Part shown: piece after piece, positions 33,481-56,265 of the stretch
Layout: every line of letters starts with the position of its first letter
Position numbering within the stretch: position 1 is the stretch's first letter
Assembly (NCBI RefSeq): GCF_030435755.1
Contig: NC_080837.1
Location: 45,139,563 to 45,203,562, forward strand
Source: Ochotona princeps
Taxonomy: Eukaryota
Direction of reading: 5' to 3'
Length of the DNA: 64,000 bases
The notes under the pieces: model-generated
What the model saw: only the letters and a program-made list of their open reading frames with translations
What the model was told of the DNA's origin: nothing
The model's database searches: none
Program-made: the position numbers and the translations under genes

Positions 33481-34894
33481 TTAAAAAAATGATTGGAGCT
33501 GTATTTGTTTGTATAGTTGCTGCTGTTATAAGTTCTATCTGGAGCCATCTCCCTCCACAAAACAACATGGGGCAGCTGTAGCACTTGTCCCTGCCACTCC
33601 TGTTTCTTTGATCTTGAGGATAGAAGATGGGTGTGTTACTAAGTATATGCCTGAACAAAGGAGTCCTTCTCAACAACGAAGGAATGGTAAGAGGAGAGAG
33701 AAGATAATAAGGCAGAAATGGATTATAATCACACTCAGGTTGGTGATGGTTTGATTCCTGATTACAGTAATCCTAGAAGTATTTTTTATCACAAGTTTAG
33801 AAAAAAACTCACAGTTGTAGGTTCTGTTACTTAGGTAAGGAATAGCACTATGCTATGCACTAGGGTAGCCAGTAGCTACTTGTAGATGTTGAGTAGTTAC
33901 AATCTAATAAATATAACTAGGAGACTGAATTTTTACAATTATTTCATCTTATTTAATTTTATTATATTACCTAACCATATAAGAGTGAAGGTTACTTTTT
34001 GGACAAGGTAGTACTTTAGTTGGTGTTTCTTTCTTTTCTTTTTTTTTTCTGTATCTTAGAATGGGGTGGAGGTGGTGGGGAGGTGAGGAGGAAGGGGAAG
34101 AAGAGAGGTTGGGGGGAGGCAGGTAGAAGTGAGAGACAGATCCTTTTGGAGGGCACCTTGATGCCATTCAAGTGAGCCTGCAAGGTGTGGAGGGCGGGGA
34201 TTGGGAAGGATTGAGGGCAAGCCCCATGGGATTGGTGTCTGAGACTGTCACAGGTGATTGCCTAAGAATGATTGGTAAGCGGGTGGAGTTGGGAAAGGGG
34301 CTGGGAGATTGGGGGTGGGATTCTCAGGTGAAATGCCGGGTTACTTCTGATTGGTGGTGGATGACTGGACTGGCAAGAATTTTCTCAGCTATGAGGAAGA
34401 GGAAATGGCACCGGGTCCAGGGTGGGATATTCTAATAACTCCTTACATTCCTTCCTTTTGTTATACATAAAGGAAAAGGGGCATTGTCTCTATGGTTTCT
34501 TCAAGCTGAGTTTACTAATGGCAATGGTTGCAGCCTGGTGGGAGGAATGAGAGATGGAGGGACACTTCTAGACCTGTAAAGAAACTGGTTAATGGTTTGA
34601 TTAAAAAAAAAAAAATTTACATCTGAGTGGATGACACAGGAATGGAGCGAGGGGTTATTCAAAGTCCTTTTGAAAAGCTGGCTTCAGTTCTCTTTTTCTC
34701 TTACCCAGGCCTTCTTGTGCTTTGGTCATTGATTCTTCATTACTCCTGAATGATCAACGTAGACAAGGTAGCCTCACCAGGAACCAGAGACCCTGACTGC
34801 CTATCATCCTATCTGACTCCTCACATTTCCAAGCAGAGGAATGAACCCTAGCTGCAATTTTGGTTAGGTGGATCTGCACAAACAAGAGAGAAGG

Positions 34895-35112
34895 GGGCCC
34901 AGAGCGGTGGCCTAGCAGCTTAAGTCCTCACCTTGAACACGCTGGGATCCCATATGGGTGCTTCTTCTAATCTCAATTCCCATCTGGCTCTCTGCTTGTG
35001 CCCTGGGAAAGCAGTTGAGGATGGCCCAAAGCCTTGGGACCCTGCACCCACGTGGGATACCCAGAAGATCTGGGCTCCTGGCTTGGGATCGACGCAGCAC
35101 CAGCTGGTGCTA
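34895..35112 (+). mobile_element. SINE 5' fragment in arm A; the full-length counterpart in arm B is at 63350-63665
   Basis: The head sequence matches, and it is truncated at ..ccagctggtgctagg. Confidence 0.7.
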
Positions 35113-36014
35113 GGTGAATTCATAGTTTGAGATAACCTTTTGAACATTAGATTAGGCTACATTCCTTCCAATAACAAAATATGTTTGCGAAGTTGGTTTT
35201 AGGAGATGCTCCTGATATGGAAACAGTAAGTAAGTGGTTGCAAAGTCAAGTCTCAAGGTTTGTTAAATTGTACAAAGCCAAGCAATACTTGCAATAAGTA
35301 AGTACTTGCAAAGCCATAAGTACTTGCAATTTTCTTTAGAATGAATTAAAAAAAAAAATTCTAGCTTCCATGTGTTTCTTTCCCACATGATAAGTAAGCT
35401 TTTGGGAGCAAATGGCCTAAAAACAAGACTGTGAAGTATTTCTCTTGATCTAGAGGTGCTGTGAGACATTGTTGGGATACTAAGTGCAATGTGACCTGGG
35501 AACCTGGGCAGTCTGGACTGGAGTATTGAGAACAGATCAAAGCAGTCTTAGAGGAATAGAATGTGGAAATTTGGTGTGAGATGATCTCAAGGGAGATGAT
35601 GGACATTTCTTGGGCCATTCATGGATTGGGCCACCAAGTATCTGTTCACAACACTGCAGAAGCATACTTGTTCATAAAACACCCATTAAGGAAAGTAAGA
35701 TACGTAAAAATGATTTACTAATGACAGGTGTAGGACAGGGCCCCAGATAGTACTTGATGTCCCCTGGAGTGCCATCCTTGATAGACCATACCTAAAAATG
35801 TGGCCTGAGGAGGTCTGCTACACATAGGGAAGGGAAGTGGGGAGAAAGAAATTAGGAAAGGATGACTTGTGTGTAACAAGAAAGATGTTGTCGGTTCTGT
35901 TACACAAAGAGGCAACTACAGAGAGGGACAGCACACTCTCTACTATTTTTTTTTTTTTTTGTCAATAGCCAAAGTTTATTAGTGGCATCATGCTTTTATA
36001 GAATGAGGGTCATG

Positions 36015-36338
36015 GGCCTGGCAGTGAAAGTCCTGGCCTTGAGCATGCTGGGATCCCATATGGGCACCAGTTCTAATCCCGGCTGCCCCCCTTCTCATCC
36101 AGCTCCCTGCTTGTGGCCTGGGAAAGCAGTCGAGGATGGCCCAAAGCCTTGGGACCCTGCACCCACATGGGAGACCTGGAGGAAGTTCCTGGCTCCTGGC
36201 TTTGGATCGGCGCAGCTGCTGCCATTGTGATCACCTGGGGAGTGAATCATCAGACAGAAGATCTTTCTGTTTCTCCTCCTCTCTGTATATCTGACTTTCC
36301 AATGAAAATAATTAAATCCTTAAAAAAAAATATGAGTT
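36015..36338 (+). mobile_element. SINE in arm A (counterpart at 61375-61655 in arm B, partly diverged)
   Basis: The copy resembles the SINE consensus. Confidence 0.75.
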
Positions 36339-36496
36339 CCACATAGGATAAAGGAGGAGGTATGGAGAATCTTACATATTTCCCACAAGCCTGTCTACAG
36401 AACCCATCAATTGTTTCTACACCCTTGTCTGAAAATATTTGTTTTGTATATCCAATCCATTGTTGCCACTCATAAGATATTCGATCAATTGTTTTC

Positions 36497-36647
36497 TTTT
36501 TTTTTTTTAATTTTTATTTTTATTACAAAGTCAGATACACTGAGAGGAGGAGAGACAGAGAGGAAGTGGAGCTGCCGGGATTAGAACCAGCGGCCATATG
36601 GGATCAAGGCAAGGACCTTAGCCACTAGGCCACGCCGCCAAGCACGA
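36497..36647 (-). mobile_element. Internally deleted SINE with a 15-bp TSD (cgatcaattgttttc), specific to arm A
   Basis: The TSD is seen at both flanks, and the element is absent from the mirrored arm B position. Confidence 0.75.
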
Positions 36648-38594
36648 TCAATTGTTTTCATACAAATGATATCCTATCAAGTGTCCTTCTACAAATCTTT
36701 ATTTTGTAAATTAGGCCTGAGGAATGTGTTTATGGAGAATGTGACCTTGGAAGGTGTATCACCCTGGCCGAGGTGTGGTCTGGTAAACTCCTGTCTTTGC
36801 TTGTCATCTACATGTACATGTCTTTGGTAGAATGCTTGTTTGTTGGTCAGCCCTGAGAAAGTTCACAGAAATAAGTGCATGGATTTCAAATTTTCTTACA
36901 CCAAAATAAGCTTATGTTTCATGTTTCCCATATATTGACGACTCCCCACAAACTGCTGGAGAGACACTGCAGTAGATTGAACCCAGCTTGTTTTCCTATT
37001 GTAGAAATATTGCATCCTTTTGTTTTGAAGCCACTTACTGCAGAGAGTCCACTAAAATGAATTGTTTAAATTTGTAATAATTTAGAAATAATCCTGTTCC
37101 AATCCTGCCTCTGTGTAAACGGAATCAGATTTGGGGTATTTAAAAATAACACCTTAATAGCTGGACTTTATACTTGGTATATGTTTACAAGGAAAGAATC
37201 TTGATTGAATTTGAACTGTAATACTGCATCAAGGTCGAGGAAGCCACCAGGGGGGAGGGGCGTGGGGGGGATTCCCAGAGCCTATGAAACTGTAACATAA
37301 TGCAAAATAATTAATAATAATAATAAATAAAAAAAAAACCAACACCTTCAGTAAGGAATCAAATACATGAGCCATTTTTTACTTATGACCCAATCGTTGA
37401 AAAGAATGCCTTCAAAGGTTCAAAACTGCATGGTCTCATTAGTGAAGTGAAACTTCAGTTTTAGACCACTCTCTTGTTAGTTTTGCTAAAATCATGGAAT
37501 GTATAAAGACAGTAATAAAATTACTACGTGCCAGAATAATCCATTTGTTTGACATTGGTCTCAGTTCTTTACATTCCTTTTCCCCCCCGTACCAATGATG
37601 TTTCTGCTGTCGTCCCTGTCACTAACAGTTCTGGTGTATAGTTGATGTCCCATAAATATTTGTTCAAGGAAGGGGAGACACCAGCTTGGAGAACAGTGTG
37701 ATTGGGCTATGAGTAAAATGGCAAGCAGCAACCTAGAGTTTCAGGAGAAAGAACAGGCGGACAGCTCCAATGACGAAGCTTTGGGCCATTGATTTGTCAT
37801 TTAACATGAGGTGGGTTAAATTTGTAAAACTAGGGAGAAAAATAAAAATAACTGAATTTTTACTGATAATTTATGTAGTTGTGTTAGAAGCATTTTTCAT
37901 CTTGGGGCAGGATTTTCTCTAGTTATCTGAATGGCATATATCCAGTCCAAAGGAAATTAAAGGATCTTTCCCATCTTTCCGTGCTCTGGCATCTCATCCT
38001 TTCGTGTCTGGGATCCAGAAATTCTTGCCCTAGAACTTTTCTTCTCCCCATCCGGACTGGACGTGTATCTTCTCTCAATCTCCCACAAACTGCAAGTCTT
38101 CCCTTGTCCAGGAAGCCAGACACCCACTCACTTCATTTTTTTTTTTCTTATTTATATGCTGAGTCTACGTACTGTTTCCCTACTCCCCAGTAACACCCTG
38201 CCTCCTGATCTGCCCTGACTGCCAAGGGAGGTTGAAAGGGAAGGTTTGTGACATAAAAAAGAGTAAGTATATGACCCACTTCATTGTATTCCGCCGTTGC
38301 GTTCGCTCTCCGCGGTTTGAAACTTGTTCTTTTCACGTGGCTTAGGGATTTACCTTAGAGAGCTGGGAGCCGGGTGGCAGGTTGAACCGCACATCTTGCG
38401 GCTTCCAGGCCTCCTTGCTGCAAAAGCCAGACCGCGAAGACAAAGTGGGTACAGGGATAAGATGCTGGATGCCACCCCATAACAACCGGAGCGGGTAGAG
38501 AGGGACCAGAGCTGGGAAAAAGGTTTGTGTCCCCATCTGGGGCGATTGAATCAGGTTCTGTCACCATGACGACAAGGGCCGGCCCGCGTGCTCC

Positions 38595-38650
38595 CCTGCC
38601 ATTGGCTGCGCACTCCATGGACCGGAGATATAAGCCTGCGCTAGGGAACA
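38595..38650 (+). promoter_or_regulatory. PNP: PNP copy A core promoter with an inverted CCAAT box and TATA box
   Basis: ccattggct lies at about 38599-38607 and TATAAG at about 38629-38634. Both are about 115-150 nt upstream of the ATG at 38750, inside a CpG-rich block (38300-39100). Human PNP is known to have a TATA plus inverted CCAAT promoter. Confidence 0.6.
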
Positions 38651-38749
38651 GTGAACTAACTGTGCTGCCTAGAGCCAGCTACCTTCTCCTTCTCTCGTCG
38701 GAGCGGATCGCAGCTAGGCAAAGGCTCTTGGAGAGGACCACGCCGGACC

Positions 38750-38760
38750 ATGGAGAACGG
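38750..38760 (+). CDS. PNP: PNP copy A exon 1 coding part (MEN + GG)
   Basis: The sequence is ggaccATGGAGAACGG|gtgagc, and the phase joins exon 2 (GG+A gives Gly). Confidence 0.8.
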
Positions 38761-40549
38761 GTGAGCTGGGCACCAGGCCCAGGGAACCCCAGAGGACCCT
38801 GCGGAGGGGAAATGGCTGTCACCAAGCCTGGGAAACTTGGCTGGCTGGGCCCTGAGGGGGTCGGGAGAGGGCGCAAATGCCCTGGAGACGCAGAGAGGCC
38901 CGGCATGGAACCTAGGTGTCCTGGGCGAGGCGACAGAGCAGTGAGGCAGCCCGCGCTGGCAGGGGCGCGCGCGGGAATGGAGCTAGGGTGGCGCCACCGC
39001 GGCGGGAAGGGGACAGGTTGGTGTGGTGCGGGCTACTCGTAAAAGGGACCGTTGTGTGGGAGCTCGCGTGCCTGGATTAGGGTGCGAGTGGAGACAGAGG
39101 CATAGGACCTACTTCGAAGCAGGGCAGACGGCCCTCCAGCCCATGCTAAGAACTCAAAGCCACAAGGTGTTTGTGCCTGAAGCCCCAGTTCCCCGTTTAG
39201 AGAAAAGCGTGCCCGCCCTCTCTCACAGGTTGCTTCTGGTTGGTTTCCCTCCGAATTGGAGATCAGATCAGTCAGTGGGGAATCATGGCTCCCAGGGAAG
39301 ACAGATATTATTCCTGAGCTGAGCGAGACCTTTCTCCATCCTCACCCTGTTCAGGGAAGCCACCCTCCCCATGTCTGTCCTGTGACTTCCAGTCAAACTC
39401 ACCAGCATTAGGGATCACAGAACTTTTGGCTGCCCAGGGATCAGGGAATCCCTGGGGGACTGAGGGCCAGGAAGGAAACCCCTGAGTTGGGACTATCACA
39501 CCAGGTGGCAGCTGCTCCAACATTTCCCTTTCCTTTGCACCTCTTGGAGATACCATTTGATTCATTTTTCACCAGCCTCATTGCCTCTTTTTCATTTTGT
39601 GGCACTAGCTCTCACCATCACCCCCAGCTCTCCTCTTGCCCACCACCTCGTGAACTGGGGAGTAAGTCTGGCTTCCTCTGCTCTGCTCTGCTCTCAAAGG
39701 GAAAGAATGTCTCTGTTGGCTTTGCCAGCTTTGTAGCCCTGCCAAACCTCAGTTCCACTGCAGGCAATCATTGGTGTTTCAGAGGGGAGTGAGAACTGGA
39801 CTTGGGACTGTAAGAAGCATTCTGAGTTACTCTTGCTGGCGAAGTAGAAGCAGCGGTTCTGGGTCAGTGTGCGCGGCCAGATCCTTTAAGGGCATGGAGC
39901 CTTGGTGAAGAGAAGGAAGGAGAAATTGTCAGGTGTGCAAGACAGTGTCGCAGGGGCTGGATAGCAAGTTTTAAATTCGCTTGCAAACTGAGTCTGTCCA
40001 GTAATAGAAGGGCAAATAACATGGCCTTACTTTATACCGGAGGCAGATGAAAGCACAGATTATTCACTGAAAAAGACAACCTCAGCAAGAATCTAGATTG
40101 AGTTCTGCTTCCCTCCCCTCTCCACCCAAATTCCCAAACATGACTTTGGGATCAGTTATGTGAGCCATTTTACAGAAACGGGAATTCTCTGGCCTCTCTC
40201 CAGCAGTGTTCCAGCCGCAAGGGTGGGCCTGTGTCTTTCACAAGCTTCTTCTGAGATTGCATGCTGTCAGGCTGGCTTAGCTTGTGGCGACCGCGTTGTG
40301 GCTTAGGTATACTTTTGTATGCCTTTATATGCACCCTTGCAAGTCTCATGACAGGGATGTTTGTGGGTCTGCCTATCCCAGAAAGAACCCAGGGAACCAT
40401 GAACGACACCCAGACCTTCTAAGAGGTTGCTAGTGCTTTTCTCCTCAAAACATCGATCCTTTAGTATTTGAGGAAAGAGTTGGAGAGTGAGGCAACAAGA
40501 GAAAATTGGATTTCCTCCTGCCCCCAAGGTAACTTTAATTCCATTTTAA

Positions 40550-41195
40550 ATGAGATGTAGACAGAGGCCTTCCATCTGCTGATTCACAGCTCAGATGGCT
40601 GCTGCACGTCAGGCTGGGCCAAGCCCAAAACAGTTAAGAGCTCCATGCAGGTCTTGCACCGGGTACAGGGGCCCAAGTGCGAACTGCTGTTCCAGGCATG
40701 TTAGCAGGAGACTGGATTGAAAGTGGAGCAACTGGGACTCAAACCCATACCCCCAGGTGAGATGCGGGTGTCACAGGCAACAGCTTAAACCCAGAGTCCC
40801 AGGCTGGCTCCAGGCCTGTCATTACATTTTGTATGTCCCTAGGGGATAGATAAAATCCTGAGCAAAATTGTCTTAGGTTTGTTGCTGCCCACAGTAAAGT
40901 CTTAATCCCACCTTTTAAAATGAGATGTATTGATTTGAAAGGCAGAGAGCGAAGAGAAGCTCCCATCCACTGGCCAGATCCAAGCCAGGAGTCAAGAATC
41001 CATCCTGGCCTTCTGCATAGGTGGCAGGGGCTCAAGGACCTGGGCCATCTTTTCCTCTGCTTTCCCAGACGTGTTAGCAGGAGGCTGGAGCAGAGGTGGA
41101 GCAGCCAGAACTAGACCTTGACATTTGAATGCTGGTGTCACAAGCAAGCGGTGGCTTAACAAGGGTGACAATGCTCTCCGTGGCACCAGCACCCG
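40550..41195 (-). mobile_element. Two tandem SINE-like elements in PNP intron 1 (about 40550-40820 and 40905-41195), mirrored in arm B at about 58596-59241
   Basis: The conserved core appears twice, and the six-frame ORFs are mirrored in arm B. Confidence 0.55.
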
Positions 41196-41584
41196 CCCTC
41201 TGGCTCTGCCACACTGGTCCCACTTTGAGTACTCTCCCTAAGCTTTTCAGACTCTGGTTGAACCTTTAACCTTGCTGACTGGATGAAGTCATTTCAGAAG
41301 GGAGATTAAACCTGCTATGGGTAACAGGACAGAGGCGGGGCTGTTGGTAGAGACATGGGCTTTATAAACTTAGCCTCTCCAGTGGGGGTAATTTCATGTC
41401 TGGGGTCCCCGGGCTGAATTCAGAAAGGGCTGGTGGAATGGGTGGGTGAGTATGCTGTGGCTTCTCCCTCGGAGCCAGTTTCTCTGTCCCCTGCTGTCTC
41501 GGTGTACCTGCCAGCCTGTTGGTCATTTGTTGGACACCTGTGGCTGGGAGCAGCACTCACTTTCGTTTTCTCTTCTTGTTCTAG

Positions 41585-41754
41585 ATTCACATATGAAGAT
41601 TATCAGAACACTGCAGAATGGCTGCTGTCTCACACCACGCACCGCCCTCAAGTGGCCGTGATCTGTGGTTCTGGGCTAGGAGGTTTGACTGATAAATTAA
41701 CGGAGGCCCAGGTCTTTAACTACAGTGAGATACCCAATTTTCCCCAAAGTACAG
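41585..41754 (+). CDS. PNP: PNP copy A exon 2 ([56 protein letters not shown])
   Basis: Within ORF 41433..41858, with a ttctag|A acceptor and an ACA G|GTACGA donor. Confidence 0.9.
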
Positions 41755-41864
41755 GTACGACCAGAGGAATGCTGGGGATGGCACTGAGGGAAATATGTAG
41801 ATACATATGTCTGCATGCATATATATGTATGTATGTATGTATATATAAGTATAAATGAAATTTT

Positions 41865-41995
41865 ATTTTTATGTGAAAGGCAGATACAGAGAGAGGAGAG
41901 ATCCCATCTGTTGGTTCACTCCCTAAATGCCTGGCACTCCAACCAGCACTCACAGGATGCCCTGGCACCGCCCCCTGGGGCCGGGGCGGGGGATT
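41865..41995 (-). mobile_element. SINE fragment in PNP intron 2, preceded by (TATG/TACA)n at 41817-41850; mirrored at about 57790-57975
   Basis: The fragment resembles the SINE tail. Confidence 0.5.
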
Positions 41996-43304
41996 TGTAT
42001 TGATGGCATGCTGTGGAATCCAATCAAGGAGGTCAAAGCTTATTATCCTATGACCCAGTATTTGCTCAAGATAAATGTAAGAGAAGAAAAATGTCCACTC
42101 TCAACCAGGATGACTCGGGAGTGAAGCTTTTCCGGCAGAAATGTGGTAATAGGACAAGTATTTGTTAGTGCAACTAGGGTGGCATCATTCCATCTTTCCT
42201 AAGCTTTGTTGACTCAGAGCTCCTCCAGACCCCAGGATAAGCCACTTACCTACTTCCCAGCCACATGCCTCCTCCCCTACTGTCAGCACGTTCAGACGGT
42301 ACTGTCGATAGTACTGTGAGGACAAGCAGTATTTGGACTCCGGGACAAAGTCACACCTTCCCTGGCTGGGTTAAGACACACCTTTGTGCCCAGCAGCAGA
42401 TGAGAAGGTGGCATAGGGTGCTCTGCAGGCATAGCCACAGCTCGCTGCACGGGTGGAAAGGCCTGACTAGCTGACCCGTTGGAAAGGGAAAGCGGCAGAT
42501 AGCCCCTTATCTACAGGGGAGCCCTGAGAGCTCGGGAAAGCACCCAATGGCCACACTCGGCCAGGTGAAACTGGCAAGGAAGGGCCAAGGGTACTTTATT
42601 TGGTTGACTTACTGATTTTGTCAATAACTTGCTTCCCTGGGCTTATTCACAAATGTTTAAGATTCCTATCTTCTGTCTCTGCAGAATTCATTCTTTGAAC
42701 AAAGATTGTTAAACTCTTTGGACAAGATTGGAAGACTAGAATAGAGAGATGAGAATGGGGGTTGGAGAAGGAAATATTACAGTGACAAGGAAGGCTTTTT
42801 TTGTGAATTGTTTTAAGATAGTAGTGACATTGGCTGCATCTGCCACTTCCACTCCCAGTGAGCTGGGCACTGCATTGAGTGATAAGTGGGCTCCCTTGCT
42901 GGGTTGGGGAGCTGTATAGTAGAGTGAAGGAGATAATTTTGGTATTTTTAAAGAGGTCTATCATTATCACAATCACTTTTCTCTGCTCTCTTTTTGTTTG
43001 TTTGTTTGTTTTACAATGTAGCTTTCTCACTCTTTTGCAACTTCTTTAGCAAGCCTTTCCTTTTCCTTTGTATGTTCACATGGATCAGTTTTACCTCTAA
43101 TCGCAGGTTATGTTTGCATAATTATGACTAATGCCCGTCTACCACAGCAGACAAAACTTTCTGAAAGCAGAGATAGTATCTTTTGCTGAATTATGCCCTC
43201 CTCTGTTGAGCAGCAAGTGGCCCACAGCAGGTGCTCAATGGCTGCGTGTTGTATGAAAGCCTAAGCCTAATCATTCTCCCCACTTCCCCCTTTTTGGTAT
43301 GCAG

Positions 43305-43408
43305 TGCCAGGTCATGCTGGTCAGCTGGTGTTTGGCTTCCTGAATGGCACATCGTGTGTGATGATGAAAGGCAGGTTCCATTTGTATGAAGGATACCCAC
43401 TCTGGAAG
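43305..43408 (+). CDS. PNP: PNP copy A exon 3 ([35 protein letters not shown])
   Basis: Within ORF 43304..43534, with a tatgcag|TG acceptor and an AAG|GTAAGC donor. Confidence 0.9.
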
Positions 43409-43520
43409 GTAAGCCAGGAGCGAAAAGGAAGAGAAGTGTCTGTTGAGTTATATTGTATTCCTCGCTTCTTTGGGCCCTTCTACAGAGGCAGCATGGGAGA
43501 GTTCAGAACACCTTTTCTGA

Positions 43521-44095
<575 letters not shown>

Positions 44096-44350
44096 TGACT
44101 TCAAAATTACTGCAATATGTTTATTTCTATATAAAACATGGCATCGGTACTATTTTATAAGCAATGCAGAAATAAGCCCTGTAAAGCCCCACTTATTTCA
44201 AGTCATACACACCAAATAAGACCGGTGCTAATTTAGTGTTGAGTGTCCTTTTTTGCATTTGGGGATTGAACATTTGCAGTGAAGTTACAGTGGGAGCCGA
44301 GGCTGAGGACGAGGATGCTGACGGTCACTTTCCTTTCTTGTGCCCACCAG

Positions 44351-44568
44351 GCATGAGCACCGTGCCAGAAGTGATCGTTGCCCGGCACTGCGGACTTCGA
44401 GTCTTTGGCTTCTCACTCATCACTAACAAAGTCATCTTTGATTATGAAAAGCTGGAAAAGGCCAACCACGAGGAAGTGTTGGAAGCCGGGAAACAAGCTG
44501 CCCAGAAACTGGAACAGTTTGTCTCCATTCTCGTGTCCAGCCTTCCACTCCCTGGCAATGTCAGCTGA
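44351..44568 (+). CDS. PNP: PNP copy A exon 6 ([72 protein letters not shown] stop)
   Basis: Within ORF 44236..44568, with a ccaccag|GC acceptor. The total CDS is 870 nt, giving 289 aa as in human PNP. Confidence 0.9.
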
Positions 44569-45005
44569 CCAGCCCTGGGGTGGTCAGGCCTCTCCGTGTT
44601 AGGATCCGAGTAGCTGCTGTCTACTTGGGCCCCCTAGCTGGAGTCATGTGCCTGTGTGTCCTTACTAGCAGGAAGAGGGAGATCCTCATCCTTTACCTTC
44701 TCCACTTTGTTCCACTAAACACTCCAGTGCCCGGTTCTCTTGCCCAGTGGTCTTCTCAAACAAGTTTGCTTCTAGTCCCTCGTCTACCATACGAACTGGA
44801 GCTGGTGCCCTACGACACACGCGTGCACATGCTCGGGATTTGACCTGGGCCTTCGGACTTTGCACAGTAGCTGTTGCTAGCTGTTTGAGACGATGCTTCT
44901 CACGTTCCTGGGGGTTCAGTTCTGCCCCACCTAACACTCTGGAGACCAAACAAGGACTAGACCAATACCTCATAGAAGCTTTATTTAATACTGAAATGTT
45001 TTGAC

Positions 45006-45011
45006 AATAAA
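45006..45011 (+). terminator. PNP: PNP copy A polyadenylation signal AATAAA
   Basis: gacAATAAAgaaaaaaa lies about 440 nt after the stop, about 245 nt inside the end of arm A. Confidence 0.5.
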
Positions 45012-45424
45012 GAAAAAAAGGGGGGAAATCTTGTGTGTTTTTGTTGCAATTTGGGGTGAGCCTGGGGCTCAGGCCAAGACTGTGACTCAGCTTCAGAGTC
45101 CAGGAGCTGAGAACTGAGAGCACTACCGCAAGGGAGGGAGGAGCCACGAAGGGCAGCAAGGTGGCCGGAGGTGGGGAGGAGGAGGAGGACTCCCTTGCGC
45201 TCTGTGGTGACCACTTCCTTCAGGCCAGTGCTAGGCCTTCTGGTTTCACTCCTGAATCTGTCAAGTTGAATACTGTACCCACCTGGATAGTGCATAATCG
45301 GGGAGTGGGATTGGCCTACAAGGGAAATAGTGGGCTCCTCCCTGTTGGGTTACCATTCCCACTGGAGATCAGGAAAACTAGGACAGGGGCAGGGGTGGCT
45401 ATGCAGAAAGGCACCAAACAGCAT

Positions 45425-45620
45425 TGTGTGTGCTGGGAAAGCAGTCGAGGACGGCCCAAAGCCTTGGAACCCTGCACCCAAGTGGGAGACCTGGTAGAAG
45501 CTCCTGGCTTCCGATTGGCTCAGCTCCAGCTGTTGCAGCCACTTGGTGAGTAAACCATCGGACGAAAGATCTTCCTCTCTGTATTTCTGCCTTTCCAATA
45601 AAAATAAATAAATCTTTTTT
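45425..45620 (+). mobile_element. SINE 3' portion just outside the arm A boundary
   Basis: The core and tail resemble the SINE consensus. Confidence 0.6.
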
Positions 45621-46984
45621 TCCATTTTTAAAATTTTTGACAATCTTTACATAGTTGAGTATGGCAAAAAAAATTCAAGGACTACAGGAAGGTGGGTAAG
45701 ACTATTATTTCCACATTGTTTTTCTCATGTATCTGGCATAAAGGGGGAGATAAAGGGAGAAGCCCCACCCAGTCTCCCACCCATGTCAGGTCCCTGTTGT
45801 GGAGCATGCTACGAGCGTCTTGCTCAAGAGTTTTGATAGTTCAACAGTTATGAATTGCTGCCAAACTCGCCACTACAAGCATGATGAGGTGCTGAAGAAT
45901 CCACTGATTGACATAGTCATCTTAGAGTCTCCTTTCTCTGTATATCTGACTTTCCAATAAAAAAAATAAAGCTCAAAAATAATCATTGTTCTTTAAAGAG
46001 ACCACCGTATGCTTTTTCTTATTTCCTGGTTCTGCTGCCCTAATATGGACAGCTGTCAAGTCAAGACCAAGTTCCTGACATGGACTCATTTTCTTCCCTC
46101 CAGAATCCATATCATACCAAACAGTTGTAACTACATCATAAGCAAGCCATAGTGTATGGTGCCAACAATAAGTTAAATGTTCTATAATATTATGATCTCT
46201 CTCAACTCCCCCCATATATGTACACACACACAGTTACCTAATTAGTTGTTCAAGATTTTTACTCATAGCTACCTCCCCAATATAGGCCATAGAGACCTAA
46301 AGACCCTCCCTCATTCCAAAAGGGTCCTGCTCCATTTCCAAGAGAAAGAAATGCTGAAGAATCTGTACAGACGGGTCTTGCTGCATTTCCCCACACAGTC
46401 TGTTATTAGCAATCCTGCCTATGCAGTAACATCTCCAGTAGACTCCAGAACAGTAATCAGACACAGCTGAATGCTGAAATTCCGGAAGGGTGTTGCACCA
46501 GGAGAGTGTGGAAGCTCTGCATCTCTTCTCCCAGGCCTCATCCTGGGCGTCTACATTATCCTTTTCAACATCCTTGGTAATAAACCAGTAAATGTTAGTG
46601 TTCCCTTGAATTCTCCCAGCTACTCAAAAAAAAAAAAAAAAAAAAATTCATGGCTACAGGTTTGCACCTGGCTGGTCAGAAACACAGATAAAATAACCTG
46701 GACCTTGCAACTGCCAGTTAAATAGGGAGAGGGGAGCAGTCTTGGAGACTAACCCCCTCAACCTGTGGGATCTGATGCTATCTCCGGGTAGGTAGTGTCA
46801 GAACTGAATTTGAGAACATCCAGCTTGTGTCAGTTGCAGAACTGATTGCTTGCTTGGTTTGTAGAGAAAACCTCACACATATCTGGTATCACAGTGATCT
46901 GTATTGTGAGAGTAAAGAAGAGAAGCTGAGTCGGGGTTGGTTTTCCCTTGCGTGTCCAAAAGTCCCATTTAATTTCCTCACAAC

Positions 46985-47320
46985 AAGGGCCAGGCGGCGT
47001 GGCCTAGCGGCTAAAGTCCTCGCCTTGAACGCGCCAGGATCCCATATGGGCACCGGTTCTAATCCCAGCAGCTCCACTTCCCATCCAGCTCCCTGCCTGT
47101 GGCCTGGGAAAGCAGTTGAGGACGGCCCAAAGCTTTGGGACCCTGCACCCACGTGGGAGACCTGGAAGAGGTTCCAGGTTCCCGGCATCGGACCGGCCCG
47201 TTGCGGCTCACTTGGGGAGTGAAACATCGGATGGAAGATCTTCCTCTCTGTCTCTCTCCTCCTCTCTGTATATCCGGCTTTCTAATAATAATAAAATCTT
47301 AAAAAAAAAATTTTTAATTT
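46985..47320 (+). mobile_element. SINE (near-consensus) with TSD (ttaatttcctcacaaca), in the spacer
   Basis: The TSD is seen at both flanks. Confidence 0.85.
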
Positions 47321-47609
47321 CCTCACAACAGCACAGGCCGCCTTGTCTTCTTTGCATCATAACCCAAGTCCCACTCAGTTTCTTTCTATTTCAAGATGTC
47401 TCCAATCATTCAAAAAAAGAATTATTTCCCCGAACTCACATCTATCCTCCAGCTATGACTCTCCTATGTTGAGAGTTGCTCATTGCATGTACTTGTCATC
47501 TCTCTTTCCCCATCTCATTCATTGTGGTTTCTATTCCACTCAAGAGATGACTCACGCCACTGAGACCACTTGTCAAGGGGACCTTGACAACTCTCTGGTT
47601 GAAGCAGTT

Positions 47610-47927
47610 TTTTTTTTTTTTTTTAGATTTATTATTATTTGAAAGGTAGATTTAGAGTGAGACACAGAGAGAGATCTTCCATCCACTGATTCACTTCCCA
47701 AATGACCACAGTGGCCAGAGCTGAGCCCATCCAAAGTTGAGAGCCAGGAGTTCCCTCCAGGTCTCCCACATAGGTAGAGAAGTAAAAGGACCTGAGTCAT
47801 CCTCCACCACTTTTTCAAGCCATTAGCAGGGAGCTGGATTGGAAGTGGAGCAGCTAGAACTATAATCATATGGGATGCCAATGCTGTAAGACAGAGGATT
47901 AGCCAATTGAACCACTGTGCCAGCCCC
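47610..47927 (-). mobile_element. SINE in reverse orientation
   Basis: The copy resembles the SINE consensus. Confidence 0.7.
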
Positions 47928-48704
47928 GAAAGCTTTGTACTCACCTCCCAAGACAGTCTGTTTTTCTGGTTTTCTCATACCTCCCTGACGGCTCTTTTTC
48001 ACATTTCCTTTTTGCATCCTTTTTCTCATGATGAGGATGGAATGGTGTCCAGACCACATGTGCTAAATGCCATTTATGTGTTAATAACTTCCAAATTAAT
48101 GAATGTAGCTTAAGCCCTGTCCCTTGATGTCCAAACACATTTACCCAAGTAGAAACTCTATGTGTCCATCTGAAAGAAAAGATTTTTCCGCACTTTACAG
48201 CTGTGAGCCAAATTTGGTTATCCTTCCAAAATCACTTTTTCCTTCAAGGCTTCGTCTGAGTAAATGGAACTTTCATTTACCTATTAGGTCACATTAAAAG
48301 CTTGGGAGCCAATCTAGACTTTTTTCTTTCTTCCTCAGATCTTATTTGACTGCATCCTTTCTACCTTCAGAATATCTCCAGTCTGAACTTTTCTTTCCTA
48401 CTAAACATTACCACCAATGGTGCAAGCCAGAACCAACTGGTAGCTTGGTTTGTCTACCACAGGGCTCTCCTAATCAATCTCTCTACTTCCATCTTTACTT
48501 CATATCATTGGTTTTCTATGAGGCAATCAGTGAAATTCTGTAAAGGTGAGTCAGTTAAAAATCATTTAAATGATAATTTTTCATGCTCAAAACTCAGACT
48601 TTGTACCATGACCTACAACATTTACCCATGTCTCCATCCTCTTATCAACCACCATTATCTCCTTTCTTCACTGAACTCTAGTGAAATGTGTAGTAAGACT
48701 CTTT

Positions 48705-48820
48705 CTGGGGGCTGGTGTTATGGCATACAGGCAAAGCCTCTGCCTTCAACACCAGCATCCCATATGGGTACTGGTTCATGTCTTGGCTGTGTCACTTGCT
48801 CCCTGCTAATGCATCGATGG
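48705..48820 (+). mobile_element. SINE 5' fragment
   Basis: The head sequence resembles the SINE consensus. Confidence 0.5.
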
Positions 48821-49680
48821 TCCAGGTACTTTGTAAGACTGTTTTTTAGTAAATGAAAGTCTTTAGGTTTTCTTATATGCTTACTCTGCCAATTTCTCAT
48901 TCAACGTTATAAATGGACACAAACCACTCATTATTTAAAAACAAACATGGAGGTATAGTAAGAGTAGCTGGATGTTTTCTGCCAATCCATGATTCTTCAT
49001 AGTTGTTCAGCTTCTAAACTGTTTTCTACTTGTTAACCCTTCACTTCAGGATAAGCCCTATGTCAGGTCTCCCAAAGTTGTGAGGAACTGATGTGGTTTT
49101 ACTGGGTTCAGGAATTTTCTCAGATCAAGTTATCTTTGCCTGGAAAGTCTGAGAGATGCCTTGGAGAACCGAACTGCACCTTGAAGCAACGATGATGAGC
49201 ATTGCATATAATCTTCAGACTTATGAGGTACCCTTGCCCGTGAAGGGGCTTTGGGCAGATTCACAGGTGCTTGTGAGCTCAGCTAGACTGGACAAAGATG
49301 AGCGTGTACGCATAGTCTCTCCACTTCCAGTACAGGAGCTTTCCATCCTGATGCAGCCAGCCCTCTATGAGGATTCTAGAGTCAAAAGTTTGTGCTTCTA
49401 TCTGTACTGGAAAGTTTGGTTTGTCTCAGTGAACTATTATGAGTCCTTGGGCTAAACAAACCTCTTTGGCTTATGTAAATGATATTATGTTGACTCTGTC
49501 ATCAGTCTGCACCTGAGTTTTCCGTTTGTCAACATGGATTGGACACCCAGTTTCTAAATAACTGTAACATTTACTTAACAACCCTGCACAACATTTTTGT
49601 CTTTTTGTTTTCGCCTCATCTTATTTGAAATTTGTTCTTCTGAAATTTAAATGTATTAAGTTTCATGAAAAAGTGCTGGG

Positions 49681-49698
49681 GTGTGTGTGTGTGTGCTT
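49681..49698. repeat. (GT)n microsatellite near the symmetry centre of the inverted duplication
   Basis: The stretch reads gtgtgtgtgtgtgtgtg. Confidence 0.9.
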
Positions 49699-49974
49699 TG
49701 TATGTGGATCATCATCTTCCCATGAAATCATGAGGAAGCTTAAAATCGTTCACAGTCCCAAGACAGGATACCAGCCAACAGTGGCTCCCTAGGCTGCTGA
49801 GCAGCGGCGGAGGCATGAGGTGGTATATTTACTCACTTATTAAACAAATGGTTTAGGGTTAGGGATAGAGAAAAGAACAAGAAAGCATTCTTACTTTTGT
49901 AAAGAAAACATTCTTACTTTTTGTAGTCTGGAGCTAGACGACAAATAAATATGCATGTCAAAATAGAAGATACA

Positions 49975-50275
49975 GCTGGTGCTATCACACAGCAGGTTGC
50001 TGTCACTTGTGATACTACCAACTCATTCATGTCTGCTTGCCTGTTCAATACCTGGCTGTTCCACTTCTGATCCATCTCCCTACTAGAGTGCCTGGGAAGT
50101 CAGTGGAAGACGGCCCAAATGCTTGCACCCATGCTACCCAGGTTGGAGATCTTCCAGATTCTTATGATAAGATTGACGAAGCCTTGGCCATTGCTGACAT
50201 TTGGGAAATGAATTAGTGGATTGAATACTCTCTGTAACTTTGCTTTTAAGTAGGTAAATAAATCTTTTAAAAACC
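49975..50275 (+). mobile_element. SINE (divergent)
   Basis: The copy resembles the SINE consensus. Confidence 0.6.
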
Positions 50276-50339
50276 ATGAAAATTGTCAAAGTCAAACAGC
50301 CAACAAGCAAAATGGAAATGAAAATACAAATATGAGGAC

Positions 50340-50652
50340 TGGCACACTGGATTAACTGACTAATCCTCCAGCTCCAAGCACAGGCACTCCTTATGGGCAC
50401 TGGTTCATGTCCCATCTGCTCTGCTTCCCATCCAACTCCCTGCTTATGGCCTGATGAAACAGTAGAGGAAGGCCCAAAGCCTTGGGCCCTGTACCCACAT
50501 GGGGACCCAGAGGCAGCTCTTGGCTCCTGGCTTCAGATTGGCTCAACTCTGGGTGTTATGGCCATTTGGGGGTGTGAACCAGTGGATGGAAGATCTTTCT
50601 GTGTCTCCTCTCTGTAAATCCATTTTTCCAATAAAAATAAATCTTTAAAAAA
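50340..50652 (+). mobile_element. SINE
   Basis: The copy resembles the SINE consensus. Confidence 0.7.
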
Positions 50653-50687
50653 GTGCAAATAACAGAAGATAACAAGAACATGAAATG

Positions 50688-51018
50688 ACCCAGCACGGTA
50701 GCCTAGTGGCTAAGGTCCGCACCTTGTACATGCCTGCATCCCATAATGGTGCCAGTTCTAATCCCAGCAGCCCCACTTCCCATTCAGCTCCCTGCTTGTG
50801 GCCTGGAAAAGCAGTCAAGGCTGCCCCAAAGCCTTAGGACCCTGCGCCCACATGGGAGACCTGGAGGAAGCTCTTGGCTCTGGCTTTGGATCAGCTCAGC
50901 TCTGGCTATTGCTGCCACTTAGGGAGTGAATCAGCGCACAAAAAATCTTTCTCTTTGTCTCTCCTCCTCTCTGTATATCTTACTGTCCAATAAAAATAAA
51001 TAAAGTAAATCTTAAAAC
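50688..51018 (+). mobile_element. SINE
   Basis: The copy resembles the SINE consensus. Confidence 0.75.
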
Positions 51019-52104
51019 AATATAAAATGAACATGGAAAATAAGAAAACAGCAAGTGAGATAGTCAACTTAATAAAATGAACATAGAAAGTCAGAATGGA
51101 AATGAAAGTGAAAGCCAAATGGAGGAGTAGGATTTTCCAACCCAGAAAAAACACAAGGGTAGATTCATCCAGAAGGACATCAAATTTAATTTAGACCAAA
51201 GCTAAAAACCAGGCAAGATTAAAGATAGGAAATTTTTCCTTTTTATTGAGTTCCAAAGTCATTGTAACAGAAAAATCAGGCGCATGACCAGTATTTGTTC
51301 AAAAGATGTCCCATAGAAACAAAACATAATTAATGAAAAACAGAGGCCTATTTACAAGAGAGAAAGGCAACAGAAATCTAAGCCAAATCAAATTTCGGCC
51401 CAGAACAGAAAGAGCAGCTCTCCTCCTCACTCTTTCAAGAGCTGATTACATTACGTCTTTGTCTCCATTACCATGAATAAGCCATAAAGGTTTTGTAGTG
51501 GCTTAAAAAAAATCAGGCTATATTCTTCTTTTGCTTCCAAAACCTTTGAGAAGACAAGCATGTAAACTTGGCAGCACTGACTTAATTAAGAAAACACTAA
51601 TTTATTGATGTGAAATGAGCTCTAGGATAGATTAAAACAGAGCAGCAAGAAGCACAACAGTACACAGAGCACTGTTTTCAATGTGGGAGAGAAGTAAAAA
51701 ATAAGAATTTGGCACCAAAAGACTGTACGCTCTCTCTTGTATGTTGAAGCCAAAATGTTGATCTTGGAGAAGTAGAGAATGCTGAGTGGTCATTAGAGCC
51801 CAGGAAGGGTGCTGCGGGGGGAGGATGGAAGGAGGACGGTTACCAGGTACCGGGGTGTGGAAGGAAAGGAGGAGGAGCTTCTCATGCTCTCCAGCATTGC
51901 GGGATCACAGTGGTAGGCAATAGTTACGTGGACAGTTCAAAATCATTGGCAGAGAGGATTTTGAACATTCCCAACACAAAGAAATGATGAATGGTATGGG
52001 TGAGGGATATGCCATTTATCCTCACCTAATCATTACACATTGTATATATTAATGGAAATGCTTAATCACACCCTGTAAACCAAATTATGATGTATTCATT
52101 AAAA

Positions 52105-52392
52105 AATAAAAACAGAGCAGCTAGCATGGTGGCACAACAGGTTGGGCTACCTGCTGTTTGTGAAGCTGACAACACACCAGCACTTGGTTGTTCCACTTCT
52201 GATCCAGGTCCCTGTTCTTGGAATTGGAAAAGTAGTATAGGATGGCCCAGGTGCTGGTGTCCCTGCACCCATGTGGGAGACCTGGAGGAAACTCCTGACT
52301 CTTGGCTAGAGTCTAGCCCCTGTAGTTACAGTTATTTGGAAATTAAGCCAGCAGATGGAAGATCTCTGTGTCACTCCATCTCTCTCTTTTTT
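52105..52392 (+). mobile_element. SINE (divergent)
   Basis: The copy resembles the SINE consensus. Confidence 0.6.
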
Positions 52393-53055
52393 AAATTGGA
52401 AAATCAGATATACAGAGAGGAGGAGAGACAGAGAAAGATTTTTCTGCCTGTTGATCCACTCCCTAAGTGGCCGCAACAGCCAGAGCTGAGCTGATCCAAA
52501 CCCAGGATTCCAGAACCTCCTCCAGGTCTCCAACATGTGGGTGCAGGGTCCCAAGGCTTTGGGCCATCTTCTACTGCTTTCACAGGCCACAAGCAGGGAG
52601 TTGGATGGAAAGTGAGGCTAGGCCTAGCGCAATAGCGTAGTGGTTAAAGTCCTTGCCTTGCATGGGCCCAAGATCCAATGTGGGCACCGGCTCTAAAACC
52701 AGCGGCTCTACTTCCCATCCAGCTCCCTGCTTGTGGCCTGGGAAAGCAGTCGAGGATGGCCCAAAGCTTTGGGATCCTGCACCCACGTGGGGAGACCTGG
52801 ACACTCTTGGCTTCAGATTGGCTCAGCTCCAGCCGTTGCGGCCGCTTAGGGAGTGAATCATCGGACAGAAGATCTTCCTCTCTGTCTCTTCTCCTCTCTG
52901 TGTATCAGACTTTCCAATAAAAATAAATACATTATAAAAAAAAAAAGAAAAAAAGAGAATGAGGCTGCCAGGACACAACTGGAGCCCATAAGGGATCCTG
53001 GTGCTTACTAGGCAAAGACTTTAGCCACTAGGCTACTGCACTGGGCCCCTTCATC
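52392..53055 (-). mobile_element. Reverse-orientation SINE interrupted by a nested forward SINE (52622-52960)
   Basis: The outer element's tail half lies at 52392-52622 and its head half at 52965-53055. The inner SINE is complete with an A tail. Confidence 0.7.
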
Positions 53056-53099
53056 TGTTTCTGACTCTGCATGTCAAATAAATCAATCATTCATAAACA

Positions 53100-53150
53100 G
53101 ATAGATAGATAGAAAGATAGATAGATGGATAGATAGTGTTGTGGCATCAT
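53100..53150. repeat. (GATA)n microsatellite
   Basis: The stretch reads agatagatagatagaaagatagatagatggatagatag. Confidence 0.9.

Positions 53151-55690: not shown

Positions 55691-56265
<575 letters not shown>

What the first reader, a model, noticed from the sequence alone, without database searches (positions are those of the whole stretch)
35100..36500. Mosaic identity between arms suggests gene conversion or concerted evolution
The gene body and the flank 35100-36340 (mirrored at 61370-62560) are 99.5-99.8% identical. A roughly 160 bp stretch (A:36340-36500 against B:61200-61350) aligns at only about 80-85%, and the adjacent SINEs (36015-36338 against 61375-61655) are partly diverged. Such islands of low identity inside near-identical inverted repeats are the signature of patchy gene-conversion tracts. 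Alternatively, the duplication is old and has been almost completely re-homogenised.
Basis: seen in the sequence. Interest (0 to 1): 0.6.

Follow-up and report, generated by a model that had tools for sequence, protein, structure and literature searches.

The report
Pika PNP inverted duplicates homogenised by conversion
Two tail-to-tail copies of the purine nucleoside phosphorylase gene in the American pika are kept almost identical by repeated copying between them, except for a small old island next to a deletion; this is a clean but ordinary case of concerted evolution.

Summary
The window is the Ochotona princeps PNP locus. It holds two intact 289-aa PNP genes in convergent orientation: A on the + strand (ATG 38750) and B on the - strand (ATG 61035).

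- The 99.6% block is the gene core, A 38686-45253 = B 61099-54533 (25 substitutions in 6562 sites; CDS identical).
- The flank 35100-36340 is 92.8% identical by substitutions (88.6% counting gaps), not 99.5-99.8%.
- The SINE, the 160-bp stretch and a 68-bp promoter piece are 82-86% identical.

O. curzoniae carries the same duplication.
- In the core and flank blocks, 468 informative sites group paralogs within species and none group orthologs.
- In the island, 23 of 28 sites group orthologs (Fisher p = 4e-35).

The duplication therefore predates the species split, and each lineage homogenised it independently. Tract edges differ between species. The island sits beside a deletion in copy B.

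The 9.3-kb spacer is inverted between the two assemblies, as a crossover between arms would produce.

Verdict: interlocus gene conversion in a small palindrome. It is a new example of a known kind.

The parts
34661..45253 (+). Arm A of the inverted duplication (10.6 kb including A-only sequence). Its outer flank continues collinearly into the ancestral upstream context.
   Evidence: Self-BLAST. Outer edge confirmed in O. curzoniae. Lepus upstream is collinear with the A-type flank.
54533..63909 (-). Arm B of the inverted duplication (9.4 kb including B-only sequence). Its outer edge abuts a SINE at 63907-64000.
38686..45253 (+). High-identity core of arm A (partner B 61099-54533). It covers the 5'UTR, all six PNP exons, the introns and about 0.7 kb beyond the stop codon. 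Identity is 99.62% (25 substitutions plus 3 indels), with the differences evenly spread.
   Evidence: KS p = 0.81. 371 'concerted' informative sites against 0 orthologous.
54533..61099 (-). High-identity core of arm B.
38750..44568 (+). PNP copy A. CDS exons: 38750-38760, 41585-41754, 43305-43408, 43536-43711, 43804-43994, 44351-44568. 289 aa; all introns GT-AG.
   Evidence: Exact match to O. princeps XP_004584699.4 / XP_058522119.1.
55218..61035 (-). PNP copy B. CDS exons: 61025-61035, 58037-58206, 56378-56481, 56075-56250, 55792-55982, 55218-55435. The 870-nt CDS is identical to copy A.
34661..35106 (+). S1, the outermost flank block (partner B 63909-63452). 91.7% identical by substitutions. 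The unique part, 34661-34860, is 97%; the SINE fragment 34895-35110 is 87%. Site pattern is concerted (about 25 sites, 0 orthologous).
35107..36014 (+). 95.2% identical by substitutions, with many small indels. A nested 98.7% sub-block lies at 35330-35632. The last ~100 bp (35917-36014) are 88% and look unconverted in O. princeps.
   Evidence: 72 concerted against 0 orthologous sites.
36015..36338 (+). S3, a lagomorph SINE shared by both arms and both species (partner B 61641-61363, with a 47-bp tail deletion also present in the O. curzoniae B-type copy). 85.7% identical. Part of the unconverted island.
36339..36495 (+). Unique sequence, 84.7% identical, orthologous site pattern. Part of the unconverted island.
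36497..36659 (-). SINE fragment specific to O. princeps copy A, with a 15-bp target-site duplication CGATCAATTGTTTTC. Absent from B and from both O. curzoniae copies.
36675..38617 (+). A-only segment of about 1.9 kb directly upstream of the PNP-A promoter. It is ancestral (homologous to Lepus PNP upstream and present in the O. curzoniae A-type copy). It is deleted in copy B of both pikas. It contains the conserved inverted CCAAT box near 38597-38609.
38618..38685 (+). S5, a 68-bp promoter-proximal piece with a TATA-like element (partner B 61187-61120). 82.4% identical in O. princeps but homogenised in O. curzoniae. It marks the outer edge of the O. princeps core tract.
61100..61119 (-). 20-bp tandem duplication (CTCCTTCTCTCGTC...) specific to O. 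princeps copy B, exactly at the outer edge of the 99.6% core.
62579..63451 (-). B-only segment of 0.87 kb: two SINEs plus unique sequence homologous to Lepus upstream. It is also kept by the O. curzoniae A-type copy, so O. princeps copy A has a lineage-specific deletion at 35106/35107.
45254..54532 (.). Unique 9.3-kb spacer between the arms. It is inverted relative to the outer flanks when compared with O. curzoniae. The O. curzoniae orientation matches Lepus downstream of PNP.
   Evidence: ('swp' pattern starts at 45254).

Best explanation
An inverted (tail-to-tail) duplication of the whole PNP gene plus about 4 kb of upstream flank arose in the pika lineage before O. princeps and O. curzoniae split. 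Leporids appear to have a single copy.

Since then the two arms have repeatedly repaired each other by non-allelic homologous recombination.
- Non-crossover outcomes (interlocus gene conversion) overwrite one arm with the other. The 6.6-kb core (5'UTR to 3' flank) is therefore 99.6% identical within O. princeps and about 99% within O. curzoniae, while the species differ by about 7.5%.
- The upstream flank was converted less often, in nested tracts of different ages: S1 about 92%, S2 about 95%, with a 98.7% sub-block.
- A small island has escaped conversion since before the species split and keeps the old paralog divergence (JC 0.16-0.21). It consists of the last ~100 bp of S2, the SINE, the 160-bp stretch and the 68-bp promoter piece.

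Inferred steps:
- The island sits on both sides of a 1.9-kb deletion in copy B (plus a later SINE fragment in A). This heterology blocks heteroduplex extension, and the accumulated 15-20% mismatch then suppresses new initiation.
- A crossover outcome of the same recombination inverted the 9.3-kb spacer in the O. princeps lineage.

What is shown and what is inferred: shared duplication, within-species homogenisation, species-specific tract edges and the island's orthologous signal are shown. The molecular pathway, the barrier role of the indel and the dates are inferred.
For: (1) Anatomy and heterogeneity. Self-BLAST and pairwise alignment give core 25/6562 differences, S2 43/887, S3+S4 64/436, S5 12/68 and S1 37/445. 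Chi-square p = 1e-130. Permutation P < 0.0005.

(2) Identity of the locus. The spliced protein is identical to O. princeps PNP, which has two accessions. O. curzoniae also has two accessions for one protein.

(3) Shared structure. The O. curzoniae locus has the same convergent pair, inner edge, spacer and copy-B deletion.

(4) Four-sequence site patterns.
- Core: 371 concerted, 0 orthologous, 0 swapped.
- S2: 72 : 0.
- S1: about 25 : 0.
- Island: 23 orthologous, 5 concerted.
- Fisher p = 4e-35.

(5) JC distances.
- Core: paralogs 0.0042 (Op) and 0.0093 (Oc); between species 0.075.
- Island: paralogs 0.16-0.21; orthologs 0.12-0.13.

(6) Tract edges differ between species.
- S2 is 95% in Op and 98.5% in Oc.
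- S5 is unconverted in Op (0.216) but converted in Oc (0.065).
- The Op S2 edge is near 35917; the Oc edge is near 36015.

(7) Protein level. Four species-specific residues are each shared by both copies within a species.

(8) Spacer inversion. The spacer aligns forward while both flanks align in reverse. The swapped-orthology pattern begins exactly at the inner arm edge. Lepus polarises O. curzoniae as the ancestral orientation.

(9) Precedent. NAHR between palindrome arms is an established cause of both arm-to-arm conversion and spacer inversion (PMC8327919; PMC3723533).
Against: - No conversion event is observed directly. Everything rests on one assembly per species.
- No GC-biased-conversion signal distinguishes the arms from the spacer: W>S: S>W is 90:59 in the arms and 26:14 in the spacer.
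- The spacer orientation could be an assembly choice or a polymorphism, because the 6.6-kb arms at 99.6% are hard to span.
- SINE CpG hypermutability inflates S3 divergence. S4 and S5 are unique sequence and show the same pattern, but S5 is only 68 bp.
- The barrier role of the 1.9-kb indel rests on position only.
Confidence: 0.9

Rival explanations
1. Independent recent duplications of PNP in each pika species produced young, nearly identical copies. The low-identity stretches would then be unrelated repeats that align by chance.
For: Within-species core identity is very high in both species. PNP-like duplicates are annotated in several other mammals.
Against: - Both species share the same inverted arrangement, inner arm edge, spacer sequence, outer edge and 1.9-kb deletion in copy B. 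They also share the 47-bp SINE-tail deletion in copy B.
- The island shows 23 orthologous against 5 concerted sites, including unique sequence S4.
Confidence: 0.02
2. Uniform old duplication with no conversion. The core is similar because of purifying selection or a low mutation rate, and the island is divergent because SINEs mutate fast.
For: - The CDS has 0/870 differences and is under constraint.
- S3 is a CpG-rich SINE.
Against: - Introns and the 3' flank are 99.6% identical between paralogs but about 7.5% diverged between species.
- The S2 flank is 12.5% diverged between species yet 1.5-5% between paralogs.
- S4 and S5 are unique sequence, not SINE, and are equally divergent.
- Site patterns are 371:0.
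Confidence: 0.01
3. Assembly artefact: one arm, or the near-identity of the arms, was created by the assembler through a false inverted duplication or haplotype mixing.
For: Near-identical inverted repeats are a known failure mode of long-read assembly. Only one assembly per species was available, and the look-up of the O. princeps protein returned no other record.
Against: - The same structure is present in an independent assembly of another species.
- The arms carry 25 substitutions and 3 indels, different flanks, arm-specific indels and a 9.3-kb unique spacer.
- NCBI annotates two genes in each species.
Confidence: 0.03
4. Two-step history without ongoing conversion: an old inverted duplication of the flank and gene was followed in each lineage by one replacement of the core. 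The mosaic would be a frozen relic of a single large conversion or re-duplication, not of patchy recurrent tracts.
For: Differences within the O. princeps core are evenly spread (KS p = 0.81; largest gap P = 0.92). This fits one homogenisation time for the whole core.
Against: - At least four identity levels occur in O. princeps: 82-86%, 92%, 95% and 98.7-99.6%. Heterogeneity inside S1 and S2 is significant.
- The levels and edges differ in O. curzoniae.
- Several events per lineage are therefore needed. This rival differs from the best explanation only in the number of events.
Confidence: 0.04

Closest known systems
Mammalian sex-chromosome palindromes with arm-to-arm gene conversion (human Y P1-P8; primate X palindromes; PMC8327919, PMC3723533)
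   Same: - Inverted arms carry a protein-coding gene and are separated by a unique spacer.
- Arm-to-arm identity exceeds 99% although the structure is older than a species split.
- The spacer is inverted between species, as expected from intrachromatid NAHR.
   Different: - The near-identical arm is much smaller: 6.6 kb, against 8-140 kb.
- The locus lies in the KLHL33-OSGEP-APEX1-PNP housekeeping neighbourhood, which is autosomal (chromosome 14) in human by my own knowledge. The chromosome was not tested here.
- The gene is a broadly expressed metabolic enzyme rather than a testis gene family.
- The arms have an outer zone of graded, partly unconverted identity.
FLNA-EMD inverted repeats on Xq28 (human P24) and other inverted-repeat-mediated recurrent inversions (PMC3961182; cited in PMC8327919)
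   Same: - Inverted repeats of about 10 kb and more than 99% identity flank a segment of tens of kb.
- That segment flips by NAHR, within and between species.
- The repeats evolve in concert.
   Different: - There the important genes lie in the spacer. Here the duplicated gene itself forms the arms, and no gene was identified in the spacer.
- Polymorphism within pikas is untested.
Concerted evolution of duplicated genes with regions that escape conversion (classical globin and similar gene pairs; theory of divergence-limited conversion). Recalled from my own knowledge, not looked up here.
   Same: - Paralogs group by species in converted segments and by orthology in unconverted segments.
- Tract limits coincide with indels or heterology.
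   Different: - Orientation is inverted rather than tandem, so crossovers give inversions instead of copy-number change.
- The escaped region here is non-coding promoter-upstream sequence, not coding sequence under divergent selection.

Membership tests
Concerted evolution by interlocus gene conversion | The duplication predates the speciation being compared. | tested here: met
   - Both pikas share the arrangement, inner and outer arm edges, spacer, the 1.9-kb deletion and the 47-bp SINE-tail deletion in copy B.
- Island site pattern is 23 orthologous against 5 concerted.
Concerted evolution by interlocus gene conversion | Paralogs within a species are more similar than orthologs between species, including at neutral sites. 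| tested here: met
   - Core JC distances: 0.0042 (Op) and 0.0093 (Oc) between paralogs; 0.075 between species.
- 371:0:0 informative sites in the core and 72:0 in S2.
Concerted evolution by interlocus gene conversion | Discrete tracts: significant heterogeneity of paralog identity, with boundaries. | tested here: met
   - Chi-square p = 1e-130.
- Permutation P < 0.0005.
- Nested blocks inside S1 and S2, p = 2e-4 to 2e-3.
- Edges differ between species.
Concerted evolution by interlocus gene conversion | Direct observation of transfer: paralogous variants exchanged in populations or pedigrees. | not testable with these tools
   The only hint is that O. curzoniae transcript contigs L004 and L006 carry mixtures of copy-diagnostic variants. 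This could also be assembler chimerism.
Large mammalian palindrome (as surveyed in PMC8327919) | Inverted arms separated by a unique spacer. | tested here: met
   Arms A 34661-45253 and B 63909-54533; spacer 45254-54532.
Large mammalian palindrome (as surveyed in PMC8327919) | Arm-to-arm identity above 99% over arms of 8 kb or more. | tested here: not met
   - Only 6.57 kb is above 99%.
- The full homologous arms are 9.4-10.6 kb, but their outer 2 kb are 82-95% identical.
- The surveyed X palindromes have arms of 8-140 kb.
- The locus works like a palindrome but is below that size class.
Large mammalian palindrome (as surveyed in PMC8327919) | Spacer inversion between species through NAHR. | tested here: met
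   The spacer aligns forward while the flanks align in reverse against O. curzoniae. The swapped pattern starts at 45254. The result depends on both assemblies being correct.
GC-biased gene conversion footprint | Excess of W>S fixed changes in converted arms relative to single-copy neighbours. | tested here: inconclusive
   Arms 90 W>S: 59 S>W; spacer control 26: 14. There is no difference, the control is small and the outgroup is distant (Lepus, about 75% identity).
Purine nucleoside phosphorylase (PNP_UDP_1, PF01048) | Full-length intact ORF with the canonical six-exon structure, matching annotated PNP. | tested here: met
   - Both copies encode 289 aa with GT-AG introns.
- Exact match to O. 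princeps PNP accessions.
- All listed homologs carry PF01048.

The most novel reading that the evidence does not exclude
Copy B may be a promoter-crippled duplicate whose open reading frame has stayed perfect for more than 10 million years in two pika lineages only because copy A keeps overwriting it. That would be conversion-driven preservation of a possibly non-functional gene.
- Copy B lacks the conserved CCAAT-box region and 1.9 kb of ancestral upstream sequence.
- In O. princeps its TATA-like element is mutated and it has a 20-bp insertion.

Alternatively, selection may retain the palindrome for PNP dosage, with the recurrent spacer inversion switching which copy sits next to the native 3' context.
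Probability: 0.25. Interest if true: 0.5.

Novelty: new member of a known kind. Interest (0 to 1): 0.35.

Why it matters
This is a compact, fully resolved example of all the expected outcomes of recombination between inverted duplicates at one housekeeping gene:
- independent homogenisation in two species;
- tracts of different ages;
- an escaped island pinned to an indel;
- a spacer inversion.

It warns annotators that the two pika PNP genes are not recent duplicates and that an intact ORF does not show that copy B is functional. With the many resequenced pika species, it offers a small system for measuring conversion-tract lengths, barriers and inversion recurrence outside the sex chromosomes. 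It does not reveal a new mechanism.

Tried and rejected
- MAFFT global-pair alignment of the whole arms timed out. I replaced it with segment-wise alignment.
- GC-biased conversion test, polarised with Lepus: no contrast between arms and spacer, so it was not used as evidence.
- Look-ups of the rabbit protein and the O. princeps protein returned no record. There is therefore no second O. princeps assembly and no rabbit locus.
- Patchiness inside the 6.6-kb core was rejected. The 25 differences are uniformly spread (KS p = 0.81; the largest gap of 678 bp has P = 0.92).
- The idea that the arm SINEs are independent insertions was rejected. They sit at the same junctions, and the adjoining unique 160 bp shows the same divergence and the same orthologous pattern.
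- Extension of the arms beyond 34661/63909 was rejected. Only SINE matches lie beyond the edge in O. curzoniae.
- A literature search for a described pika PNP duplication found nothing.
- Whether Lepus has a second copy beyond the 10-kb flank could not be settled. None lies within 10 kb, and only one locus and one accession were found.

Full report
**What the window is.** A tblastn search with human PNP found every PNP exon twice, on opposite strands. Splicing the exons gives two intact 289-aa ORFs with GT-AG introns. Copy A is on the + strand (ATG 38750, stop 44568). Copy B is on the - strand (ATG 61035, stop 55218). The two 870-nt coding sequences are identical. The protein is an exact match to Ochotona princeps PNP, which has two accessions (XP_004584699.4 and XP_058522119.1). 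O. curzoniae likewise has two accessions for a single protein. ORFs upstream match BTB, TsaD/OSGEP and Exo_endo_phos domains. By my own knowledge of mammalian gene order, this fits the KLHL33-OSGEP-APEX1-PNP neighbourhood.

**Checking the observation.** Self-BLAST and segment-wise alignment give this anatomy, in arm-A coordinates with the arm-B partner. Identities count substitutions only.

| Segment | Arm A | Arm B | Identity (differences/sites) | Note |
|---|---|---|---|---|
| S1 | 34661-35106 | 63909-63452 | 91.7% (37/445) | outermost flank |
| B-only | none | 62579-63451 | n/a | 0.87 kb |
| S2 | 35107-36014 | 62578-61642 | 95.2% (43/887) | many small indels; sub-block 35330-35632 is 98.7% |
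| S3 | 36015-36338 | 61641-61363 | 85.7% (40/279) | SINE |
| A-only | 36497-38617 | none | n/a | 2.1 kb |
| S5 | 38618-38685 | 61187-61120 | 82.4% (12/68) | promoter-proximal |
| B-only | none | 61100-61119 | n/a | 20 bp |
| Core | 38686-45253 | 61099-54533 | 99.62% (25/6562) | plus 3 indels |

Homology stops abruptly at 45253/54533, leaving a 9.3-kb unique spacer.

It is 92.8% by substitutions and 88.6% by BLAST counting gaps.
- Heterogeneity is overwhelming: chi-square p = 1e-130 and a GENECONV-style permutation test P < 0.0005.
- Inside the core the 25 differences are evenly spread (KS p = 0.81).

**The decisive comparison.** I retrieved the O. curzoniae locus. It has the same convergent gene pair, the same inner arm edge, a homologous spacer and the same large deletion in the B-type copy. 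A four-sequence alignment was made of the two O. princeps (Op) arms and the two O. curzoniae (Oc) arms.

- 'Concerted' sites have both copies of a species sharing a base that differs from the other species. 'Orthologous' sites group A-type with A-type and B-type with B-type.
- Core: 371 concerted, 0 orthologous, 0 swapped.
- S2: 72 : 0. S1: about 25 : 0.
- Island (S3 + S4 + S5): 23 orthologous, 5 concerted. Fisher p = 4e-35 against the rest.
- Core JC distances are 0.0042 (Op paralogs), 0.0093 (Oc paralogs) and 0.075 (between species).
- Island JC distances are 0.16-0.21 for paralogs and 0.12-0.13 for orthologs.
- All core differences between the Op copies that could be scored are novelties on one copy.
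- The species differ at four residues (G4Q, V47A, T76R, Q269H). Both copies within each species carry the same state.

The duplication is therefore older than the species split, and each lineage has homogenised it separately.

**Patchiness.** Tract ages and edges differ within and between species.

- S2 paralog distance is 0.052 in Op but 0.015 in Oc.
- S5 is unconverted in Op (0.216), where copy B carries the unique states. It is converted in Oc (0.065).
- In Op the last ~100 bp of S2 (35917-36014) are already 88% identical, so the Op tract ends near 35917. The Oc tract runs to the SINE start near 36015.
- S1 and S2 contain nested blocks of significantly different identity.

Dating is an inference. 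I scaled by the local between-species distance and a 10.65-Ma split of subgenus Ochotona from the Pika lineage (PMC9486525). On that scale:
- the O. princeps core was last homogenised roughly 0.6 Ma;
- O. princeps S2 roughly 4 Ma, and S1 roughly 6-7 Ma;
- the island dates the duplication, or its last homogenisation, to roughly 16 Ma.

**Why the island is where it is.** The Lepus europaeus PNP locus polarises the indels.

- The A-only segment is ancestral. It aligns to Lepus upstream sequence, including a conserved inverted CCAAT box, and the O. curzoniae A-type copy also has it. Copy B of both pikas therefore carries a 1.9-kb deletion.
- A later SINE fragment with a 15-bp target-site duplication is specific to O. 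princeps copy A.
- The B-only 0.87 kb is also ancestral, so O. princeps copy A has its own deletion at 35106/35107.
- The unconverted island lies on both sides of the large indel.

I infer that this heterology stops heteroduplex extension, and that the resulting 15-20% mismatch then suppresses further exchange. This step rests on position and on established knowledge of homology-dependent recombination. It was not tested.

**Spacer inversion.**

- Against O. curzoniae, both outer flanks of the window align in reverse while the spacer aligns forward.
- The four-sequence site pattern flips to 'swapped orthology' exactly at 45254.
- A Lepus downstream block is collinear with the A-type copy in O. 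curzoniae but with copy B in the window.
- The O. princeps arrangement therefore appears derived.
- This is the crossover product of the same arm-to-arm recombination. About half of primate X palindromes show such inversions between species (PMC8327919).
- It depends on both assemblies being right across 6.6-kb near-identical arms.

**Rivals.**

- Independent duplications are excluded by the shared breakpoints, the shared deletions and the island's orthologous signal.
- Selection or a low mutation rate cannot explain introns that are 99.6% identical between paralogs but 7.5% diverged between species.
- An assembly duplicate is unlikely, given two independent assemblies, arm-specific differences and distinct flanks.
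- A single replacement per lineage does not explain at least four identity levels and species-specific edges.

**Comparison with known systems.** The locus works like a small mammalian palindrome, comparable to Y and X palindromes and to the FLNA-EMD repeats. It is also a standard case of concerted evolution with an escaped segment. It does not meet the size class of the surveyed large palindromes, because only 6.6 kb is above 99% identical. No GC-biased-conversion footprint could be shown. No paper describing a pika PNP duplication was found.

**Side observation on function.**

- Copy B lacks the CCAAT-box region.
- In O. princeps, copy B has ATGTAAG where copy A has ATATAAG and Lepus has ATAAAAG. 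It also has a 20-bp tandem duplication at the core edge.
- In O. curzoniae, two transcript contigs match the A-type copy. Two others mix diagnostic variants.
- Copy B's perfect ORF may therefore reflect conversion rather than selection. This is untested.

**Verdict.** This is a new example of a known kind, of moderate interest.

Noticed in passing
window 45254-54532 (against O. curzoniae composite of L002 + reverse complement of L001, positions 15861-24750): The 9.3-kb spacer between the two PNP copies is inverted relative to the outer flanks when compared with O. curzoniae. Lepus suggests the O. curzoniae orientation is ancestral. It could be a real NAHR inversion, a polymorphism or an assembly choice.
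   Followed up: partly
window 61100-61203 (copy B promoter) against 38531-38685 (copy A): Copy B lacks the conserved inverted CCAAT box (CTGCCATTGGCTG, in A near 38597-38609 and also in Lepus) and 1.9 kb of ancestral upstream sequence. Its TATA-like element reads ATGTAAG instead of ATATAAG, and it has a 20-bp tandem duplication. Whether it is expressed is unknown.
   Followed up: partly
window 36482-36659: A reverse-oriented SINE fragment of about 150 bp with a 15-bp target-site duplication (CGATCAATTGTTTTC). It is present only in O. princeps copy A, so it is a post-speciation insertion inside the unconverted island.
   Followed up: yes
window 35106/35107 against 62579-63451: O. princeps copy A has a lineage-specific deletion of about 0.87 kb that truncates a SINE (34895-35110). 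Copy B, the O. curzoniae A-type copy and Lepus keep at least part of the sequence.
   Followed up: partly
L002:11211-11532 against L001 (A-type copy; composite coordinates 29062-30014): In O. curzoniae intron 1, about 320 bp of the B-type copy do not align with about 950 bp in the A-type copy or with either O. princeps copy. This replacement or indel interrupts the converted core in that species.
   Followed up: no
L003-L006 (Logan transcript contigs encoding the O. curzoniae protein): L003 and L005 carry A-type diagnostic bases almost throughout. L004 and L006 mix A-type and B-type bases (mRNA positions 160, 163, 702). This could mean both copies are transcribed, that variants are exchanged by conversion, or that the assembler made chimeras.
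   Followed up: partly
window 3683-4384 (-), 13018-13443 (-), 17939-18427 (+): ORFs with BTB, TsaD/OSGEP and Exo_endo_phos (APEX1-like) domains lie upstream of PNP-A. This fits conserved KLHL33-OSGEP-APEX1-PNP synteny (gene names from my own knowledge).
   Followed up: partly
window 38618-45253 and 50900-52200: Fixed differences between the two pikas, polarised with Lepus, are biased W>S both in the arms (90:59) and in the single-copy spacer (26:14). This may be a regional effect or a parsimony artefact of the distant outgroup.
   Followed up: partly
window 63907-64000 and L002:6946-7172: A SINE abuts the outer end of arm B in both pika species, at the point where homology with arm A stops. 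It may mark the insertion junction of the duplicated copy.
   Followed up: no
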